From NCBI GenBank assembly GCA_964453605.1, contig CAYVOI010000001.1, forward strand, positions 612,095 to 676,094: a DNA stretch of 64,000 nt, in the 5' to 3' direction. Within the stretch, counting starts at the first letter, position 1. The number at the start of each line of letters is the position of its first letter. The notes under the pieces are model-generated. The model was not told the DNA's origin. It saw nothing but the letters and a program-made list of their open reading frames with translations, and ran no database searches. Shown here piece by piece: positions 2,165 through 58,793 of the stretch. The translations under genes were made by a program, and so were the position numbers. The stretch is from an uncultured Gammaproteobacteria bacterium. GTDB taxonomy: Bacteria; Patescibacteriota; Patescibacteriia; Veblenbacterales; UBA10138.

Positions 2165-3928
2165 TTAGGCAATAAAACCGCCTGCCTGTAGCCCCCACAG
2201 AGTTTTGTACAGGCCACCCTTCTTCTCTATGAGCTCTGCGTGGTTGCCCTCTTCCTGCACCGCGCCATCGCGCACCACCACTATACGGTCGAGTTTCATA
2301 ATGGTTGAGAGCCGGTGGGCAATAACCAACGTGGTCTTTCCGCGCATGAGCGTGGCCAGTGCATCTTGGATAAGCGCCTCGGTTTGCGAATCAAGGCTCG
2401 AGGTGGCCTCGTCGAGCACTAGAATAGGCGCGTTCTTCAGAATGGCCCGGGCGATAGCCACGCGCTGGCGCTCACCACCAGAAAGCTTTACCCCGCGCTC
2501 CCCTACAAATGTCTGGTAGCCCCGGGGTAACTTGCTAATGAATTCATCACAGTGTGCCTGTTTAGCCGCCGCTACCACCTCGGCGTCGGTGGCATCACGC
2601 CGACCGTAGCGAATGTTATCTATGAGTGTACGGTGGAACAGCACTGGATCCTGCGGCACAAAGCTTACCCTCTGGCGGAGTGAATCTTGCGTGACCGAGG
2701 TAACGTTCTGACCATCGATGGTAATTTCACCACTCGTCAGGTCGTAGAACCTAAGTAGCAGTGCAACAAGTGTACTCTTGCCCGCCCCAGACGGCCCAAC
2801 CAAACCTACGTGCTCGCCAGGTGCGAGGCGTAGGGAAAAATTCTTAATTACCTGATGTGAGTCTATGTAGGTAAAGTTGACGCCCGTAAACTCCAGCGCA
2901 CCACGTGGGACTTGGAGGGTGGTGGCGCCGGGTCGGTCTTGCACCTGGTGAGGTTCGTTCAGTATTTCTACCATCTCGGCGGCGTCACCAAAGCGTCGGT
3001 ACATGCGACGAATAACCCGCCCGACACCCCACAGCTGGTCGAACACACGTATGACGTACACCTGCACCAGCACAAAGTCACCTATGGTGACAGCTCCTTG
3101 CCGCCAGAGCCTCAAGGCCGCGTAAAATATGGCAAACTCGAGCAGGACCATGAAGGCTACTTGTACTGCTTCGATGGTGGAGTCAAAGTTCCAGCTCCGA
3201 CGATCGAGCTGGAAGCGCTCCTCGGTGAGCTGACCAAACGCTCGCCGCTCATCGCTGTGCGCCGTGAACAATTTCACGGTCGACTGGTTCATGACAGTAT
3301 CAGCCAGGTAGCCACTCACCGCCGAGTCAGCTTTCGCCGCCACCTCGCTGAACTTAAGCTGCTGCAGTGAGAGGAAGTAGTTTATAGTGAGGTAGAGTAT
3401 AAGCCAACCGCTCAGCAGAGCACCGAGCACGGGGTAGCTCAAGAACAGCACCACCAGTATGAAGCTGAGACGGACCACCGTGCGCAGTATTTCCCACAAA
3501 AACATGTCGGTAATGTCTTCAAACGCGCCCACCAGCCGGCCCACACGTTTCACCAGGGCGCCGACAAAGCGATTGCTGAAGAAACCGAACGAGTGCCGGT
3601 GGAGGTACTCGAAACAGGTATTACTGAGTTCGGCAAAAATCCTCGGCTGGAAAAAGTTGTTCGTGAATGTGGCCACGCGGTACATGAGCCACATCAGCGC
3701 ATTAATGCCAAGAATGACGAACAAAATGTGGGCAAGTTGAGGAACTACCAACGCTCGAGCTAGTTCGGTAGTTGCCAGCACGTCGAAAAAACGCTTGTAG
3801 TAGAGCGGTGTTACCACCTCCAGGGCAGCGCCAATGGTGATGGTTGATACAATCAACCAAAACGCGCCGCGGTAGCGGCGCACGTGCTGCCAGAACAGCT
3901 GGTACGTTTGCTTAGTGATGTGCTTCAT
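2165..3928 (-). CDS. ABC transporter ATP-binding/permease fusion (MsbA-like exporter)
   Basis: 587 aa with six N-terminal TM helices and a C-terminal NBD. Walker A GPSGAGKST, ABC signature LSGGERQR, Walker B ILVLDEATSSLD. Confidence 0.85.
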   Translation of the reverse strand: MKHITKQTYQLFWQHVRRYRGAFWLIVSTITIGAALEVVTPLYYKRFFDVLATTELARALVVPQLAHILFVILGINALMWLMYRVATFTNNFFQPRIFAELSNTCFEYLHRHSFGFFSNRFVGALVKRVGRLVGAFEDITDMFLWEILRTVVRLSFILVVLFLSYPVLGALLSGWLILYLTINYFLSLQQLKFSEVAAKADSAVSGYLADTVMNQSTVKLFTAHSDERRAFGQLTEERFQLDRRSWNFDSTIEAVQVAFMVLLEFAIFYAALRLWRQGAVTIGDFVLVQVYVIRVFDQLWGVGRVIRRMYRRFGDAAEMVEILNEPHQVQDRPGATTLQVPRGALEFTGVNFTYIDSHQVIKNFSLRLAPGEHVGLVGPSGAGKSTLVALLLRFYDLTSGEITIDGQNVTSVTQDSLRQRVSFVPQDPVLFHRTLIDNIRYGRRDATDAEVVAAAKQAHCDEFISKLPRGYQTFVGERGVKLSGGERQRVAIARAILKNAPILVLDEATSSLDSQTEALIQDALATLMRGKTTLVIAHRLSTIMKLDRIVVVRDGAVQEEGNHAELIEKKGGLYKTLWGLQAGGFIA

Positions 3929-3999: not shown

Positions 4000-4512
4000 T
4001 TAGCGACGATCCGTTACAGAATTACTCGTACGGCGTGGCCTAGTGGTTACGTACCAGGTGACGTAGGCAATGGTGAGGGCGCTGTAATTCAGAGCCATGA
4101 ACCACGGCTCGGCCCAGGAAAAGCTGTTGACGTGGAAACTCGACAGCGGCCACAGGAACGGGGTGGGGAAAAACGCCGTGCTGTGGGTAAAAATGTCTAT
4201 GCCGATGTGTAAACCCCAAGCACCCAACAGCCATGGCATGCGTTTACCACGAGCGAAATATACGACCACTACCACCGCTACCCACACTACCAAGCTATGC
4301 GTGTAGTTATACAGGTGGTAGACATAGGTCGGTATGCTAAGAAGCTCAGGTTTACCAATTGTGAAAAGTCCCTGAAACAAGCGCTGCACAAAGAACACGC
4401 CAAAACTGGCGAGGTCAGGCGCCACGCCAAAAAACACTGCCCACAGCCGCTGCCGCAGTGGAACTTTCTGGTACACTACTGCTGTCCACAAGCCATGAGC
4501 GAAAATATCCAT
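4000..4512 (-). CDS. Membrane-bound metal-dependent hydrolase-like protein (DUF457/YdjM-like)
   Basis: 170 aa polytopic membrane protein with several His residues (MDIFAHGLWT..). The family assignment is from memory of the DUF457 pattern. Confidence 0.4.
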   Translation of the reverse strand: MDIFAHGLWTAVVYQKVPLRQRLWAVFFGVAPDLASFGVFFVQRLFQGLFTIGKPELLSIPTYVYHLYNYTHSLVVWVAVVVVVYFARGKRMPWLLGAWGLHIGIDIFTHSTAFFPTPFLWPLSSFHVNSFSWAEPWFMALNYSALTIAYVTWYVTTRPRRTSNSVTDRR

Positions 4513-37807: not shown

Positions 37808-38047
37808 CTAGACCGGCACAACCTCGGTTACTTGGGGCAGGGCTTTCTTGAGCGCCTCTTCCAGGCCGAACTTCAGGGTGATAACCGACATGGCGCAGTG
37901 CTCACACGTGCCTTGGAGAGAAACCAGCACCCGGCCAGTGTCGGGCTCAAAATCTACCAAGCTAATGTGCCCGCCGTGGCCGGTAACGTAGGGCTCGGCC
38001 TCGGCGAGTACTGATTGAATTTTAGATACTACCTCAGTCTGCTCCAT
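37808..38047 (-). CDS. NifU-like Fe-S cluster protein (Nfu-type C-terminal domain)
   Basis: GTCEHCAMS CxxC motif. An extended -10 TGTGGTATACT lies 6 nt before the ATG (MEQTEV), suggesting a leaderless or short-leader mRNA. Confidence 0.7.
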   Translation of the reverse strand: MEQTEVVSKIQSVLAEAEPYVTGHGGHISLVDFEPDTGRVLVSLQGTCEHCAMSVITLKFGLEEALKKALPQVTEVVPV

Positions 38048-38083
38048 AAAGGCAGTATACCACACGAGACGCTTTGTATGCCT

Positions 38084-38788
38084 GGAATAATAAAAGCGTA
38101 GGGGCTCATAAAAAACCCACTACGCTTATGTTGCACCCCCAAACCCATAGGGGGCTTTGTTCGACGAGCCGGCGAGTGCAGTGCCGAACCTCTTGCTGTG
38201 TACAGCAGTTCTGCGTAGTGCTCCTCGGCGGGGGTAATCAGGCCTTGTTACCTGATTTTCTCCAACCCAGCTTCCTCGGCTGGTGCAGCCACTAGGCACC
38301 AACGATGTTGATGTTTGGGTTTTGGTGCCTACCCGTAGGCAGGTGATCCCGGCAAGGCTGCCGTGGGCAAACAACGGATAATGATTGTGGGTGGCGGTGG
38401 TATGGTAATCCTTAAGGCGAAGACCGTCAACAAACGAAAAACCCAGCGGACCGGCGGCGCTGGGGGGGTGTTGTGCGAGCAGGCAGCTCGCTGTTTTGAG
38501 CTTGAGACAAGTACAGAGTGAGCGGGGGGTGGATGCCCCAGACGATAGAAGGTTGGCCTGACGTAGCCGGTAGGCCTTACTGTGTTGATCGTATCGTATT
38601 CTCAGTCTGCTAGCTGTTAAGCTCCCGAAGTGCCATACCCCGATGGCGCTTGCCGCGTAGCTTCCAAACGCGGATTGTGTTGCGTGTGTTACGTGTCGCT
38701 CTGGGCGACGTGCAAGTGCTCGGAAGCTGAGCAGCAGGACCTCGCACTCGGCGAGGATTTTTGTTACCCGCATATAATGGGCAGGTAA
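38084..38788 (-). ncRNA. Candidate large structured ncRNA (about 700 nt) with its own promoter and intrinsic terminator; class unknown
   Basis: Minus-strand TTGACA (38817-38822), 16-bp spacer, TACACT (38795-38800). A minus-strand terminator at 38094-38127 (AAGCGTAG...CTACGCTT) is followed by a U-tract. Many perfect internal hairpins, and the only long ORF (221 aa) has non-protein-like composition. Confidence 0.3.
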
Positions 38789-38852
38789 CACTTGAGTGTA
38801 GGTGATCTGAGCATTTTGTCAAGGGCTAAGCTGTGAATAACCACCAGTAACC

Positions 38853-40206: not shown

Positions 40207-40605
40207 TTACTTCTGGTCTGCTAACTCTAGGGACTCTACGCCGTACTCAAACGTGCCGCGCTCGAACTGGACCACTATAGGATACCTGTTCCCTGGATAA
40301 ACACCGTCGAGCGCCTCGTTGTAACCAACCACCTGTCCAACTTCAGGGTTATCAATCATTCTCACGGATGCTCCAGGAATAAAACCCGCGGCGCGGGCTC
40401 GGTCTACAGCGGCTTTCGTATTCTCTGCAGTATTACCTTGTTTTAGCTCTTTAGCCAAACGAAGCAGTTTCTCTAGGTCTTCAGGGTTCTGCGGCAGATG
40501 TTCAACCCCTAAACCAATCCCGGGATTCCTGTATTCCTTACTTGGCATAAGAATGAAGTAAAGTGTAAGTGCCTTTAACGTACTACAACTATTCCGAAAA
40601 ATCAA
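40207..40605 (-). CDS. Hypothetical protein (AT-rich module, gene 3)
   Basis: 132 aa. Overlaps the upstream gene by 4 nt (ATGA). No recognisable motif. Confidence 0.4.
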   Translation of the reverse strand: MIFRNSCSTLKALTLYFILMPSKEYRNPGIGLGVEHLPQNPEDLEKLLRLAKELKQGNTAENTKAAVDRARAAGFIPGASVRMIDNPEVGQVVGYNEALDGVYPGNRYPIVVQFERGTFEYGVESLELADQK

Positions 40606-41279
40606 TCCTTTAACTTACGGTACCTTTCAAAAAACTGCCTCTTAACCCGACGGCTCACTTCGTCTACCACTTTAGCGCGTTTGGAAACCGGCGTGCGGCG
40701 GAGCAGTCTAATTTTTTCCACCGCGGCCCGTTTGAGCTGGGCTCGCCAGCGCTTGTCTTTGAGCGCTAACAAACTATATGCCAGATCCTCTCGCTCAAGC
40801 GCTACACGATTTTTACTGTAGCGTAAAGGTGAGCCATCAAACTCCACACCCATCACCTTAGCCTTGGCGCCAAAAATTTTCCGCGCTAGTGCTTTCATCT
40901 TTTGCTCGCGGCTACGCTCGCAAAAGTAGAGCATTCTGCTTTTCCCTACCATGCGCTTTACAGCCAGCATGTTCTCTAGTGCCGAAAGCTCCCTAACGCA
41001 AGGCTTAATCTTCCAGCTGTTACTCAGCCCCAAACCTCGCACTCGCGGTTGCAACCACTTAGTAATCTCCCCTGCCTCGGTCCGGCGGTAGGGTGCGAAC
41101 AAATCCGTCGGCCCACCGACGGGCATAATGGTCAGCGATTGTTTGCGATACCCCTCCCACAAATAGTTAAACACCTGCACCAGGTAGGCGTGGTACCCAA
41201 GGTCGGTAAAAATATCTCTCGGCACGCCGTAACCGTTGACGGCAGCAAATAATTTTTTCATACACTGAAATCGTATCAA
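40602..41279 (-). CDS. Hypothetical protein with highly basic C-terminal half (AT-rich module, gene 2)
   Basis: 225 aa. K/R-rich C-terminal 90 aa suggests nucleic-acid binding. 3-nt gap to the upstream gene. Confidence 0.45.
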   Translation of the reverse strand: MIRFQCMKKLFAAVNGYGVPRDIFTDLGYHAYLVQVFNYLWEGYRKQSLTIMPVGGPTDLFAPYRRTEAGEITKWLQPRVRGLGLSNSWKIKPCVRELSALENMLAVKRMVGKSRMLYFCERSREQKMKALARKIFGAKAKVMGVEFDGSPLRYSKNRVALEREDLAYSLLALKDKRWRAQLKRAAVEKIRLLRRTPVSKRAKVVDEVSRRVKRQFFERYRKLKD

Positions 41280-41282
41280 AAG

Positions 41283-41726
41283 TCAAATGTCATGCTTCAA
41301 CACTTCCACAGCTTCGCCTAAAATATCCAGGTCTTTTTTCTTCTCCTCGCGGGGTAACATTGAATACCGCTCACGCTGCTCTGAAGATGCAGTGGCAGAA
41401 TTACGATCAAGCCAAAAATCGTGAATTAAATAAAGCACATCTCTCAACTTTTCTATGGCCACCTTAGCGGATGCCACATTCTCCTCTCTCCAGTCTCGTG
41501 GTAAATCTACAAAATTGGTATTTGCAATGTCCAGCTCAGTCTGACCGCCGTGAGCAGCAATCCACTCCTCGTCATTCGTGGATTTAATACGTTTCTCATA
41601 AATACCATCCTTATCTTTTCGCCGCTCTCGCCAATTCTCGTGCATGCCCGACGCAAGCTCTTCAATTAATTTTGTCATGGCTGCCTCGCGCTGGCGCTCC
41701 GGTGAGTTAGTATATGATTCTGACAT
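41283..41726 (-). CDS. RyR (ryanodine-receptor) domain-like protein (AT-rich module, gene 1)
   Basis: HENWRERRKDKDGIY...NFVDLPRDWREENVASAKVAIEKL resembles the bacterial/phage RyR domain pattern (HExW...R..GW.YG...LvpY.eLpe.eK..dR). Confidence 0.45.
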   Translation of the reverse strand: MSESYTNSPERQREAAMTKLIEELASGMHENWRERRKDKDGIYEKRIKSTNDEEWIAAHGGQTELDIANTNFVDLPRDWREENVASAKVAIEKLRDVLYLIHDFWLDRNSATASSEQRERYSMLPREEKKKDLDILGEAVEVLKHDI

Positions 41727-41747: not shown

Positions 41748-43872
<2,125 letters not shown>

Positions 43873-43876
43873 AGAG

Positions 43877-45151
43877 CTAGCGCGTCAGGAGCTCGAGCGC
43901 GCGCTCGAGCTGGGGGTCTAACCCCTTGTCCGCATCTTCTTTGGTGAGCTTGACCTCGATGTCGGGCGTGAGCCCATTCTTGTCAATCGAGCGACCTTTG
44001 GGCGTAAACCACTTAGCAATGGTGAGCTTGACCTCAGAACCGTCTCCGAACTGCTGAATGTCTTGCACCGAGCCCTTGCCAAAGGTCTGCTCACCCACCA
44101 CGGTGGCAAGCTTGTAGTCCTGGAGCGCACCGGTGACTATTTCCGAGGCCGAGGCCGAGCCTTGGTTCACCAGCACCACCGTAGGCACACCAGCCAGGTC
44201 CCCGGGCCCAACGCTCTGGTGAGCGGTAAACTGCGGTGGCTGGCCCTGCTCTTTCACAATCACACCTTTACCTACCCAGTGGCTGGAGAGCGCAATGGCT
44301 TGGCTCAGGTACCCTCCGGGGTCGTTCCGTAAGTCGAGCACAATACCTTTGGGGGCCCTGCCCACCAGCGCGGCCCACTGTTCCCTAAACTTGACGTCAG
44401 TGTCTTCGGCAAAGTGCACCACCCTGAGGTAAGCCACCTGGCCGCGGCCTTCAGGCAGCGGCTTGAGCTCACCCCTAACGGCGGGGACGTCAATACGGGC
44501 ACGCGTAAGCTCAATAACTTTTGGCTCACTCTCGCCTGCCCGCTCGATTACGAGCGTGACCTTAGTGCCGTGGGGTCCACGAATGAGCGAGACGGCGTAG
44601 TCCACGGCGATGCCGGTGGTGTCGAGCTTATCAATGGCTACAATCCTGTCCCCGGCCCTCAAGCCCGCTCGCTCGGCCGGCGTACCAGGGAGCGGCGCAA
44701 TGACCGTGAGGTGCCCTTCCTTAATACCAATTTCCGCGCCAATGCCTTCGAACTTGCCCTCGAGCTCTTGGGCAAAGCTCTTGGCCGTTTCGGGATCCAT
44801 GAACACCGAGTAGGGGTCCCCTAAGCCCCCGACCATACCCTGCAGCGCGCCGTAGAACAGCTTGGTGTCGGGCACTGGGTGCTCAAGGTAGTTATCGTGC
44901 ACGTAGTCCCAGACTTTCCAGAACAGTGAGAAGTCGACGTCTTTGGTGAGGTAGGCGGGTAGCGGCTGGTTGGTGTTGGTGAGGTGGCCCGACACGCTAC
45001 TGCCTGGTGTGCTCTGTACCGTGGCCCCCCCGAGCCAACCCAAAGCAAAACTCAAGATAACAAAAATCGCCACCAGGGTGGCGGGCACAACCCGCTGTGC
45101 GCGGGCTTTCGTAAACGGACTGGGAAGCGGGGTCAGTGGTGAGAAGTTCAT
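43877..45151 (-). CDS. Carboxyl-terminal processing protease (S41, CtpA-like) with PDZ domain
   Basis: PDZ (GDRIVAIDK), S41 catalytic region (VVLVNQGSASASEIVTGALQD), and an N-terminal membrane anchor. Confidence 0.8.
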   Translation of the reverse strand: MNFSPLTPLPSPFTKARAQRVVPATLVAIFVILSFALGWLGGATVQSTPGSSVSGHLTNTNQPLPAYLTKDVDFSLFWKVWDYVHDNYLEHPVPDTKLFYGALQGMVGGLGDPYSVFMDPETAKSFAQELEGKFEGIGAEIGIKEGHLTVIAPLPGTPAERAGLRAGDRIVAIDKLDTTGIAVDYAVSLIRGPHGTKVTLVIERAGESEPKVIELTRARIDVPAVRGELKPLPEGRGQVAYLRVVHFAEDTDVKFREQWAALVGRAPKGIVLDLRNDPGGYLSQAIALSSHWVGKGVIVKEQGQPPQFTAHQSVGPGDLAGVPTVVLVNQGSASASEIVTGALQDYKLATVVGEQTFGKGSVQDIQQFGDGSEVKLTIAKWFTPKGRSIDKNGLTPDIEVKLTKEDADKGLDPQLERALELLTR

Positions 45152-58506: not shown

Positions 58507-58530
58507 AGCGTTATGGTGGTTATTCTACCA

Positions 58531-58695
58531 TTCGCGCGAATAAGGGATAGGCTAAGGGGACCAACGATCGCGGCAAACCGGGCCTTGCCTTTATTCCAAT
58601 GTTCTTAGGAACATTGGAATTGTTAACTGGGGCTGGTGCATACCCTATATATTAACAATTGATAACCATACTGTCACTAGTTAACAATTGTTAAC
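58531..58695. promoter_or_regulatory. Cluster of palindromes in AT-rich intergenic region: TTCGCGCGAA (58531-40), 11-4-11 hairpin TTCCAATGTTC-TTAG-GAACATTGGAA (58594-58619), and three GTTAACAATTG-type sites including the 16-bp perfect palindrome GTTAACAATTGTTAAC (58680-95)
   Basis: Seen directly. Located upstream of the DUF1905 gene start and downstream of the HIT gene. Confidence 0.5.
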
Positions 58696-58793
58696 TATCA
58701 TAGTGAAGCTGTTGATACTCACTCTGCCGTCGCTAGGCTTACGTCCCTACCTGCCAGCCGCTTAAGTACTTCAGTCGCGTGAGCTGGAAATAC

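What the first reader, a model, noticed from the sequence alone, without database searches (positions are those of the whole stretch)
38084..38822. About 700-nt region without convincing coding sequence, carrying its own near-consensus promoter and intrinsic terminator: candidate large structured ncRNA
Between the C39-like peptidase gene and the Nfu gene (both on the minus strand) lies 787 bp whose only long ORF (221 aa, minus) translates to an R/S/T/G/H-rich sequence with no hydrophobic periodicity. On the minus strand there is TTGACA, 16 bp, TACACT (38822-38795), and at the far end a strong terminator (AAGCGTAG...CTACGCTT plus inner GGG/CCC, 38094-38127) followed by a U-tract, just before the Nfu promoter. 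The interval is dense in perfect hairpins: GGCACCAA/TTGGTGCC, GCCTAC/GTAGGC, GCGAGC/GCTCGC, CCTCGC/GCGAGG, and a 9-bp 5' hairpin GUUACCUGC.../...GCGGGUAAC. I could not match RNase P, tmRNA or 6S consensus. A short stretch (GGTGGATGCCCC...CGATAGAAGG) faintly resembles the 23S 5' end, but this is insufficient.
Basis: partly seen in the sequence, partly recalled or inferred. Interest (0 to 1): 0.65.

Follow-up and report, generated by a model that had tools for sequence, protein, structure and literature searches.

The report
Variable non-coding RNA insert after peptidase gene
The 800-base gap is real, non-coding DNA with stable predicted RNA folds that only some related Patescibacteria carry at this spot; part of it is conserved in one other genome, so it is probably a small, previously undescribed RNA gene of unknown role, not one large 700-nt RNA.

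Summary
There are 805 nt (787 to an upstream GTG) between the C39-like peptidase and NifU. The gap carries a near-consensus promoter, a strong terminator and many hairpins, and has no Rfam match.

The 221-aa ORF does not look coding. Its codon score is about 3.8 sd below real genes, GC1/2/3 is flat, and it has no homologue in 5.8 G or 1.84 G proteins. It is not conserved in relatives.

- **A variable insert.** Six relatives with the same gene order have peptidase and NifU 0-94 nt apart. Three others have gene-free gaps of 794, 854 and 531 nt.
- **An ancestral terminator.** The terminator is also present in a relative without the insert. The extra DNA sits between the peptidase stop codon and that terminator.
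- **Partial homology.** Only the downstream half (38440-38160) has a homologue, in L014 (nhmmer E=1e-6). The match covers a promoter-like site and a ~70-nt core that is 82% identical, against 45% at four-fold sites. The core has indels of 2 and 4 nt and two compensatory pairs.
- **An orphan upstream half.** It has its own promoter, ends in a terminator-like hairpin, and has no homologue.

Best reading: two tandem sRNA-type units, the second belonging to a tiny new RNA family. Function is unknown, and transcription is inferred, not shown.

The parts
38795..38822 (-). Promoter-like site P1 (TTGACA-16-TACACT), 30 nt after the peptidase stop codon
   Evidence: 10/12 match. No homologue of this half in any relative.
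38431..38790 (-). Unit 1: orphan, stably folding ~350-nt segment. It has a 5' hairpin at 38790-38762 and ends in the hairpin CCCAGCG/CGCUGGG (38464-38442) plus UUUUUCGUUUG (38441-38431).
   Evidence: z=-3.54; z=-3.68 without the last hairpin. The terminator-like hairpin itself is no more stable than shuffles. There is no similarity to L014 or L026.
38402..38430 (-). Promoter-like site P2 (TTGACG-17-TACCAT). It is conserved in L014 3741-3770 (TTGACA-17-TAGGTT), where it is the first element after the peptidase stop.
   Evidence: 9/12; alignments.
38085..38398 (-). Unit 2: ~310-nt candidate RNA, homologous over 38440-38160 to L014 3730-4031
   Evidence: nhmmer E=1e-6 and 2e-5. Smith-Waterman score 46 against a shuffle maximum of 28. 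z=-4.14 with the terminator and -2.12 without it.
38227..38295 (-). Conserved core CUAGUGGCUGCACCAGCCGAGGAAGCUGGGUUGGAGAAAAUCAGGUAACAAGGCCUGAUUACCCCCGCC. Hairpin Pa is 38283-38279/38271-38267 with loop CGAGGAA. UUGGAGAAAA is single-stranded. Hairpin Pb is 38257-38250/38243-38236.
   Evidence: Alignment A3 is 82% identical, against 45% at four-fold sites of the flanking genes. All 11 pairs are kept; 2 are compensatory and 1 is changed on one side. Indels are 2 and 4 nt.
38293..38331 (-). 10-bp perfect hairpin with a 19-nt A/C-rich loop, just 5' of the core. L014 has a different hairpin at the same place.
   Evidence: I7.
38084..38127 (-). Intrinsic terminator (AAGCGUAGUGGG...CCCCUACGCUU plus UUUAUUAUU). 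It is homologous to terminators in L014, L026 and L016.
   Evidence: -24.7 kcal/mol, z=-3.66; GCGYAG/CURCGC stem and T-run aligned in four genomes.
38126..38791 (-). 221-aa ORF, judged not to be a gene
   Evidence: It crosses the internal hairpin/U-tract and P2. No ORF was called in the gaps of L014, L026 or the P0005 contig.
38047..38064 (-). NifU promoter of extended -10 type (TGTGGTATACT). The -10 ends 6 nt before the ATG at 38047, so the mRNA is probably leaderless. This marks the downstream border of the insert.
   Evidence: The same motif follows the peptidase stop directly in L009/L010 and precedes NifU in L014 and L016.

Best explanation
The interval is lineage-variable non-coding DNA. 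It lies between the stop codon of the C39-like peptidase gene and that gene's ancestral intrinsic terminator.

In this genome it most likely holds two tandem, independently transcribed sRNA-type units on the minus strand.
- Unit 1: P1 at 38822-38795, RNA about 38788-38432. It is an orphan sequence.
- Unit 2: P2 at 38430-38402, RNA about 38395-38085. It ends at the shared terminator and belongs to a small, undescribed RNA family whose other known member is in metagenomic contig L014.

The constrained part of unit 2 is a ~70-nt core. It has two hairpins, one with a CGAGGAA loop, around a single-stranded UUGGAGAAAA. I infer that unit 2 acts as a free RNA, by binding a protein or by base-pairing, in the manner of sRNAs that arise in a 3' UTR from their own promoter and share the mRNA's terminator.

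Shown: non-coding character, homology, constraint on the core, variable presence, shared terminator. Inferred: transcription, the two-unit division, and any function.
For: - **Non-coding.** The ORF's codon score is -0.16, against 0.27+-0.12 for 48 genes of the window. GC1/2/3 is .58/.58/.56 against .60/.42/.66. It has no homologue in 5.8 G proteins, none in the other five frames, and none in 1.84 G representatives apart from repeat-protein artefacts.
- **Insert.** Peptidase and NifU are 22, 10 and 1 nt apart or overlapping in L009/10, L011/12, L013, L015 and L025, and 94 nt apart in L016. The gaps are gene-free and measure 794 nt in L014, 854 nt on the P0005 contig and 531 nt in L026.
- **Homology and constraint.** nhmmer gives E=1e-6. 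The core is 82% identical, against 45% at 135 four-fold sites. Indels are 2 and 4 nt. All 11 core pairs are kept, with 2 compensatory.
- **Strand.** The window gives z=-4.4 (minus) against -2.2 (plus). L014 gives -6.2 (sense) against -2.0 (antisense).
- **Signals.** P1 and P2 are, and P2 aligns with TTGACA in L014. L026 has TTGACA-17-TAAGAT right after its peptidase stop. The terminator is homologous in four genomes.
- **No known family.** Rfam gives nothing for the window, L014 or L026.
Against: - There are no expression data.
- Only two sequences share the core, so the covariation is not significant (115/500 shuffles reach it).
- Unit 2 without its terminator folds only modestly better than shuffles (z=-2.1). 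Two of 34 control windows fold as well as the whole interval.
- The internal terminator-like hairpin is no more stable than shuffles. L014's -10 hexamer is poor (TAGGTT) and failed the scan.
- A 230-codon open stretch is rare in dinucleotide shuffles (p about 0.002) and remains unexplained.
- Unit 1 and the whole L026 gap have no homologues. Much of this DNA may therefore be unconstrained filler.
Confidence: 0.5

Rival explanations
1. Mostly non-functional filler. This intergenic spot tolerates insertions and turns over fast. The promoter-like hexamers and hairpins would be incidental, and the shared core a relic of common descent or of a transfer, with no role of its own.
For: Presence is patchy across the peptidase tree. 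Unit 1, L026's gap and L014's 3' 450 nt are mutually unrelated. A second variable spot lies nearby, between pyrG and L27. L014 carries a 19-nt copy of 16S rRNA, which looks like captured filler.
Against: The core is 82% identical while four-fold sites are at 45%. A conserved core beside diverged flanks points to selection; a recent transfer would leave the whole insert similar. All three gaps that could be read fold better than shuffles on the sense strand: z=-4.4, -6.2 and -3.3. In a ~0.88-Mb genome, 800 nt of junk is unusual.
Confidence: 0.25
2. A cis-acting RNA. Either it is a long 3' UTR of the peptidase mRNA, or it is a leader/attenuator in which the conserved core controls read-through of the terminator into NifU.
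For: The DNA lies between the peptidase stop and that gene's ancestral terminator. In the window, CACUACGC (38220-38213), just 3' of the core, is perfectly complementary to the 5' arm of the terminator, GCGUAGUG at 38125-38118 (I19). In L014, CUGCGCC inside the core is complementary to the terminator arm GGCGCAG (sequences). These could be antiterminators.
Against: NifU keeps its own extended -10, apparently leaderless promoter downstream of the terminator in every genome, with or without the insert. The two candidate antiterminator segments are not at homologous positions. In L014 about 450 nt separate the core from the terminator. No Shine-Dalgarno sequence precedes the NifU ATG for a read-through transcript.
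Confidence: 0.13
3. The 215-221-aa ORF is a real orphan protein, basic and rich in Ser, Thr and Arg, expressed from P1 and ending before the terminator.
For: An open stretch of 230 codons occurs in only 0.2% of dinucleotide shuffles. The promoter and terminator bracket the ORF exactly. A gene caller called it.
Against: The codon score is about 3.8 sd below real genes and the GC2 fraction is 0.575. There is no homologue. The homologous DNA in L014 has stops in all frames and indels of 2 and 4 nt. No ORF was called in the sister contig's 854-nt gap. No Shine-Dalgarno sequence precedes either start, and the ATG sits in the 5' hairpin.
Confidence: 0.06
4. A very divergent copy of a known RNA (RNase P, tmRNA, 6S, a group I or II intron, OLE/ROOL/GOLLD/raiA/HEARO) or a non-autonomous mobile element.
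For: GAGGAA(AA)GUC in L014 recalls the RNase P motif GAGGAAAGUCC (from memory). Introns are common in Patescibacteria (PMC13011429).
Against: No Rfam hit at E<=10 in the window interval or in L014. Covariation favours a local hairpin where RNase P would need a long-range P4 helix. A housekeeping RNA would not be absent from close relatives at this site and non-homologous in L026. There are no terminal inverted repeats, target duplications or second copies in 64 kb.
Confidence: 0.04

Closest known systems
3' UTR-derived sRNAs with their own promoter that share the terminator of the upstream mRNA (e.g. MicL, DapZ in enterobacteria; from my own knowledge)
   Same: It lies on the same strand directly after a coding gene. 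A promoter-like site sits at or after the end of that gene. It ends at the terminator that also serves the upstream gene. That terminator is homologous in relatives without the insert.
   Different: The size is 310-720 nt, against roughly 80-300 nt. There is no sequence relation, no known chaperone or target, and no expression data. The region varies between relatives, whereas those sRNAs are conserved 3' UTRs.
Large orphan structured bacterial RNAs (OLE, ROOL, GOLLD, raiA, HEARO)
   Same: It is a long gene-free interval with stable predicted structure and its own transcription signals, found by inspection of intergenic DNA.
   Different: No Rfam model matches. Those families are widespread, with hundreds of covarying members. 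Here only ~280 nt is shared by two genomes, and the interval seems to split into two units.
Bacterial RNase P RNA
   Same: L014 has the motif GAGGAA(AA)GUC, and unit 2 is about 310 nt long.
   Different: There is no cmscan hit at E<=10. The motif sits in the loop of a local hairpin supported by a compensatory change. No P4 3' strand is present. The element is absent from close relatives at this locus.

Membership tests
Any Rfam 15 family (RNase P, tmRNA, 6S, SRP, group I/II introns, OLE, ROOL, GOLLD, raiA, HEARO, riboswitches) | Covariance-model score at or above the family's gathering threshold | tested here: not met
   There are 0 hits in the whole window. At E<=10 there are only terminator-driven junk matches, 0 hits in L014's gap and junk in L026. 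ARAGORN finds no tRNA or tmRNA.
Protein-coding gene (the 221-aa ORF) | Codon usage and positional GC like the genome's genes | tested here: not met
   The score is -0.163 against 0.273+-0.115 (minimum -0.03). GC1/2/3 is .58/.58/.56 against .60/.42/.66.
Protein-coding gene (the 221-aa ORF) | Homologues, or an ORF kept open in related DNA | tested here: not met
   Only the ORF itself is found. The other hits are repeat-protein artefacts. L014's homologous DNA has stops in all frames and indels of 2 and 4 nt. No gene was called in the other three gaps.
Protein-coding gene (the 221-aa ORF) | ORF longer than chance | tested here: met
   The open stretch is 230 codons, against 111+-28 in 3000 dinucleotide shuffles, p=0.002. 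This is unexplained.
3' UTR-derived sRNA with own promoter | Lies downstream of a coding gene on the same strand and ends at that gene's terminator | tested here: met
   The terminator stem GCGYAG/CURCGC and T-run align in the window, L014, L026 and the insert-free L016.
3' UTR-derived sRNA with own promoter | Functional internal promoter and a discrete transcript | not testable with these tools
   Only consensus matches are available: P1 10/12 and P2 9/12. P2's -35 and the T, A and T of its -10 are conserved in L014.
Conserved structured RNA (generic) | Base pairs maintained by compensatory substitutions beyond what phylogeny gives | tested here: inconclusive
   All 11 of 11 pairs are kept, 2 compensatory and 1 one-sided, but with two sequences 115 of 500 shuffles do as well. 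Sliding the 3' partners drops pairing to 5-55%.
Riboswitch / terminator-antiterminator leader of NifU | Conserved aptamer joined to an expression platform that controls the only route to expression of the downstream gene | tested here: not met
   Candidate antiterminator complementarities exist (I19; L014 sequence). However, NifU has its own promoter after the terminator in all genomes, and in L014 the core lies 450 nt from the terminator.
MITE / IS-derived or repeated palindromic element | Terminal inverted repeats, target-site duplication, multiple copies | tested here: not met
   No terminal repeats or duplications appear at the borders. There is no second copy in the 64-kb window or in 14 related loci. 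The rest of the genome was not available.
CsrB/RsmZ-type protein sponge | Many GGA motifs, enriched over expectation | tested here: not met
   GGA counts are 2, 4, 15 and 7, against shuffle means of 3.1, 4.0, 11.7 and 6.9. No CsrA-like gene is found in the DNA held.

The most novel reading that the evidence does not exclude
The stretch after the C39-like peptidase gene in Kerfeldbacteria-like Patescibacteria may be a nursery for independently transcribed, fast-evolving structured RNAs. Unit 2 and L014 would form a family whose constrained core displays Shine-Dalgarno-like purine tracts (a CGAGGAA loop and single-stranded UUGGAGAAAA). One member has acquired an exact copy of the 16S rRNA 790-loop hairpin. 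Such an RNA could mimic ribosomal RNA and act on the translation apparatus, for example on 30S subunits, IF3 or an rRNA-directed enzyme.
Probability: 0.07. Interest if true: 0.7.

Novelty: new member of a known kind. Interest (0 to 1): 0.35.

Why it matters
Patescibacteria have very small genomes and almost no characterised regulatory RNAs. A gene-free 0.5-0.85 kb interval that recurs at one locus is therefore worth noting, especially with part of it under clear sequence constraint and no match in Rfam. If transcribed, unit 2 and its L014 relative would define a new RNA family in this phylum.

The practical lesson is that the apparent single 700-nt RNA with its own terminator is a composite. 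It consists of an orphan segment and a conserved segment, both placed in front of a terminator that pre-dates them. With two members and no expression data, this is a lead, not a discovery.

Tried and rejected
- **Protein homology of the ORF.** Only the ORF itself was found. The full HMMER scan added P0122 and P0123, which are tandem-repeat surface proteins. Many weak repeat matches add up there, at 22% identity per repeat. Rejected.
- **Search of the other five reading frames as one chimeric query.** This was meant to catch ORFs called in homologous DNA. It found nothing at E<=1.
- **Genome contigs and metagenome-contig scans with the peptidase.** The only relatives found were at most 49% identical, and those examined (L001, L002) lacked the synteny.
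- **Phage and plasmid BLAST.** Nothing relevant.
- **Three viral contigs pattern scans from the conserved core.** Six hits without flanking similarity, which I take as chance, and then none.
- **Covariance model R1 from the two homologues.** It found no third member in the window or 14 loci.
- **rRNA-derived patchwork.** Against the E. coli rrn operon the window shows only chance-level 10-15-mers. Only L014's 19-mer is significant.
- **Circular permutation or similarity of unit 1 to L014's 3' domain, and unit 1 to unit 2.** Not significant.
- **CsrA sponge.** GGA is not enriched.
- **Small precursor peptides for the C39-like peptidase.** No credible or conserved small ORFs in the three gaps.
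- **RNase P.** Rejected.
- **Literature search for structured RNAs of Patescibacteria.** It returned only intron papers.

Full report
**1. What is there.**
On the minus strand the C39-like peptidase ORF (39665-38853; Pfam PF13529, weak) is followed by a gene-free interval. After it comes NifU (PF01106). NifU starts at ATG 38047, as called on the identical Logan contig L003, or at GTG 38065. The gap is therefore 805 or 787 nt.

- TTGACA-16-TACACT at 38822-38795.
- A strong hairpin plus U-tract at 38127-38084 (-24.7 kcal/mol, z=-3.7).
- The listed perfect hairpins.

The minus strand folds 4.4 sd better than 150 dinucleotide shuffles; the plus strand folds 2.2 sd better. Thirty-four control windows of the same length average -0.86+-1.5, but two of them reach -4.1 and -6.4. 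Folding energy is therefore suggestive, not decisive. Rfam 15 gives nothing at gathering thresholds anywhere in the 64 kb, and only terminator-driven junk at E<=10. ARAGORN finds nothing.

**2. Is the 221-aa ORF a gene?**
Four results say no.
- Its codon log-odds score is -0.16, against 0.27+-0.12 for 48 genes of the window (minimum -0.03). Its GC1/2/3 is flat (.58/.58/.56, against .60/.42/.66).
- It has no homologue among 5.8 G proteins except itself.
- The other five frames also hit nothing.
- A full HMMER scan of 1.84 G representatives adds only two tandem-repeat surface proteins. Their many weak repeat matches add up, at 22% identity per repeat.

One point speaks for coding and stays unexplained. 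A 230-codon open stretch occurs in only 0.2% of shuffles.

**3. The comparative picture.**
The organism is a Patescibacterium. Its closest peptidase homologues are about 55-66% identical. Those that carry a name are labelled Kerfeldbacteria, Veblenbacteria or 'Patescibacteria group'.

The gene order L27 / peptidase / NifU / pilO-N-M is conserved.
- In L009/L010, L011/L012, L013, L015 and L025, peptidase and NifU are 22, 10 and 1 nt apart or overlap.
- In L016 they are 94 nt apart. The gene caller missed NifU there; tblastn finds it at 2962-3198.
- Three other genomes have large gene-free gaps at exactly this place: L014 with 794 nt, the contig of P0005 with 854 nt but no DNA available, and L026 with 531 nt.

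In a neighbour-joining tree of the peptidases, the window groups with P0005. L014's P0009 groups with P0004, and L026's P0021 stands alone. Presence is therefore patchy. In L009 the NifU promoter TGTGGTATACT follows the peptidase stop directly. The same motif sits at 38064-38054 in the window, and this fixes the downstream border of the insert.

**4. What is conserved.**
nhmmer aligns window 38440-38160 with L014 3730-4031 (E=1e-6, and 2e-5 in the reciprocal search). In Smith-Waterman shuffle tests only this pair of segments is significant. Unit 1 matches nothing, and the two halves of the window interval do not match each other.

The alignment starts at a promoter-like site. In the window this is TTGACG-17-TACCAT (38430-38402). 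In L014 it is TTGACA-17-TAGGTT, where it is the first element after the peptidase stop.

The alignment peaks in a ~70-nt core (38295-27) that is 82% identical. Four-fold degenerate sites of NifU, the peptidase and L27 are only 45% identical between the same two genomes (135 sites). The core is therefore under constraint. Its indels are 2 and 4 nt, which excludes a conserved reading frame, and L014 has stops in all frames there.

Two hairpins can be drawn in both sequences. All 11 pairs are kept, with two compensatory changes (A-U/G-C and U-A/C-G) and one G-C/G-U. Sliding the partners destroys the pairing. With two sequences, however, 115 of 500 column shuffles do as well.

L014's gap folds at z=-6.2 on the sense strand and -2.0 on the antisense strand. 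L026's folds at z=-3.3. A covariance model built from the two homologues finds no third copy in the window or 14 loci.

**5. The terminator is older than the insert.**
The stem GCGYAG...CURCGC and the T-run align in the window, L014, L026 and the insert-free L016. The U-A/C-G difference is itself compensatory. The variable DNA thus lies between the peptidase stop codon and the terminator that ends the peptidase unit. The element does not bring its own terminator.

**6. Anatomy in the window.**
Upstream of P2 lies a hairpin CCCAGCG/CGCUGGG (38464-38442) followed by UUUUUCGUUUG. Its T-run aligns with the T-rich stretch before L014's promoter. The interval therefore reads as follows:
- P1.
- Unit 1 of ~350 nt (z=-3.5 to -3.7).
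- A terminator-like hairpin.
- P2.
- Unit 2 of ~310 nt (z=-4.1 with the terminator and -2.1 without it).
- The ancestral terminator.
- The NifU promoter.

The internal hairpin is weak evidence by itself (z=-0.1). The split rests mainly on the conservation of P2 and on the fact that homology begins there. L026 also begins with a 10/12 promoter match right after the stop codon. By eye it has a hairpin plus T-run near 4025-4070.

**7. Interpretation.**
I favour two tandem sRNA-type units (confidence 0.5). The second would be a member of a very small new RNA family. The arrangement resembles 3' UTR-derived sRNAs that have their own promoter and share the mRNA's terminator; that comparison comes from my own knowledge. 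Function is not determined.

Three ideas were tested and dropped:
- CsrA sponge: GGA is not enriched.
- RNase P: no CM hit, and the GAGGAA motif lies in a covarying local hairpin loop.
- Precursor peptides for the peptidase: no credible small ORFs.

The rivals are:
- Largely unconstrained filler at an insertion-tolerant site (0.25).
- A cis-acting 3' UTR or attenuator (0.13). An 8-nt segment at 38220-38213 is complementary to the terminator's 5' arm, and L014 has an analogous 7-mer. However, NifU has its own promoter after the terminator in every genome.
- An orphan protein (0.06).
- A diverged known RNA or a mobile element (0.04).

**8. Limits.**
Homologues could afterwards be reached only through exact-protein look-ups, and all twelve of those were used. 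The sister contig's DNA could not be fetched. The rest of the 876-kb genome was not available. No expression data exist in the tools.

**Verdict.**
The feature is real and non-coding, and part of it is conserved and new to Rfam. Interest 0.35.

Noticed in passing
L014 3860-3878: AACAGGATTAGATACCCTG is an exact 19-nt copy of the universally conserved 16S rRNA helix-24/790-loop sequence (E. coli rrsH, E=0.001 in a 5.7-kb search). In L014's RNA it is predicted to form the same apical hairpin, ACAGG-AUUAGAUAC-CCUGU. The window has an unrelated 10-bp hairpin at the equivalent place.
   Followed up: partly
window 38047-38064; L009 4820-4841; L014 4495-4517; L016 2945-2964: NifU is preceded in all these genomes by an extended -10 promoter (TGnTATACT) that ends 6-7 nt before the ATG, with no Shine-Dalgarno sequence. 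This suggests a conserved leaderless NifU mRNA in this clade.
   Followed up: partly
window 38126-38815: A 230-codon stretch without stop codons lies in a sequence that otherwise fails every coding test. It is rare in dinucleotide shuffles (p about 0.002) and unexplained.
   Followed up: yes
L026 3826-4356: A third genome has a 531-nt gene-free gap at the same locus. It has TTGACA-17-TAAGAT right after the peptidase stop and folds at z=-3.3. Apart from the shared terminator it has no sequence similarity to the window or to L014.
   Followed up: partly
window 40207-41726: Three adjacent minus-strand ORFs (132, 225 and 147 aa) have no Pfam match and a GC of 0.44-0.50, against about 0.57 around them. 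They sit between L27 and CTP synthase, which are adjacent in several relatives. Other relatives carry different genes there: a TSP3 repeat protein in L011, a metallo-beta-lactamase/Apyc1-like protein in L026, and a pilin in L025. This is a second variable spot next to the first.
   Followed up: partly
window 43300-44011, plus strand: This stretch is antisense to the L9 gene and the end of the S41 peptidase gene. It folds far better than shuffles: z=-6.4 with 30 shuffles and -4.0 with 20. The sense strand gives -2.5.
   Followed up: partly
window 58507-58793: This 287-nt gene-free gap holds three copies of the palindrome TTAACAATTGTTAA(C) or its half-site within about 100 nt, which looks like an operator array. 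A 712-nt window over it folds at z=-4.1 on the minus strand.
   Followed up: no
L016 2781-3198: The deposited gene call is a 125-aa antisense ORF. The real NifU gene (2962-3198, plus strand, 57% identical to the window's) was missed.
   Followed up: yes
window 1-64000: The whole 64 kb contains no tRNA, no tmRNA, and no Rfam family at gathering threshold.
   Followed up: no
L008 4814-4955: In the Kerfeldbacteria MAG GCA_016217875.1 the contig ends 142 nt after the peptidase stop. No NifU start appears, and the tail has no similarity to any of the other gaps. This genome may carry yet another insert, or the break may be an assembly break at a repeat.
   Followed up: partly
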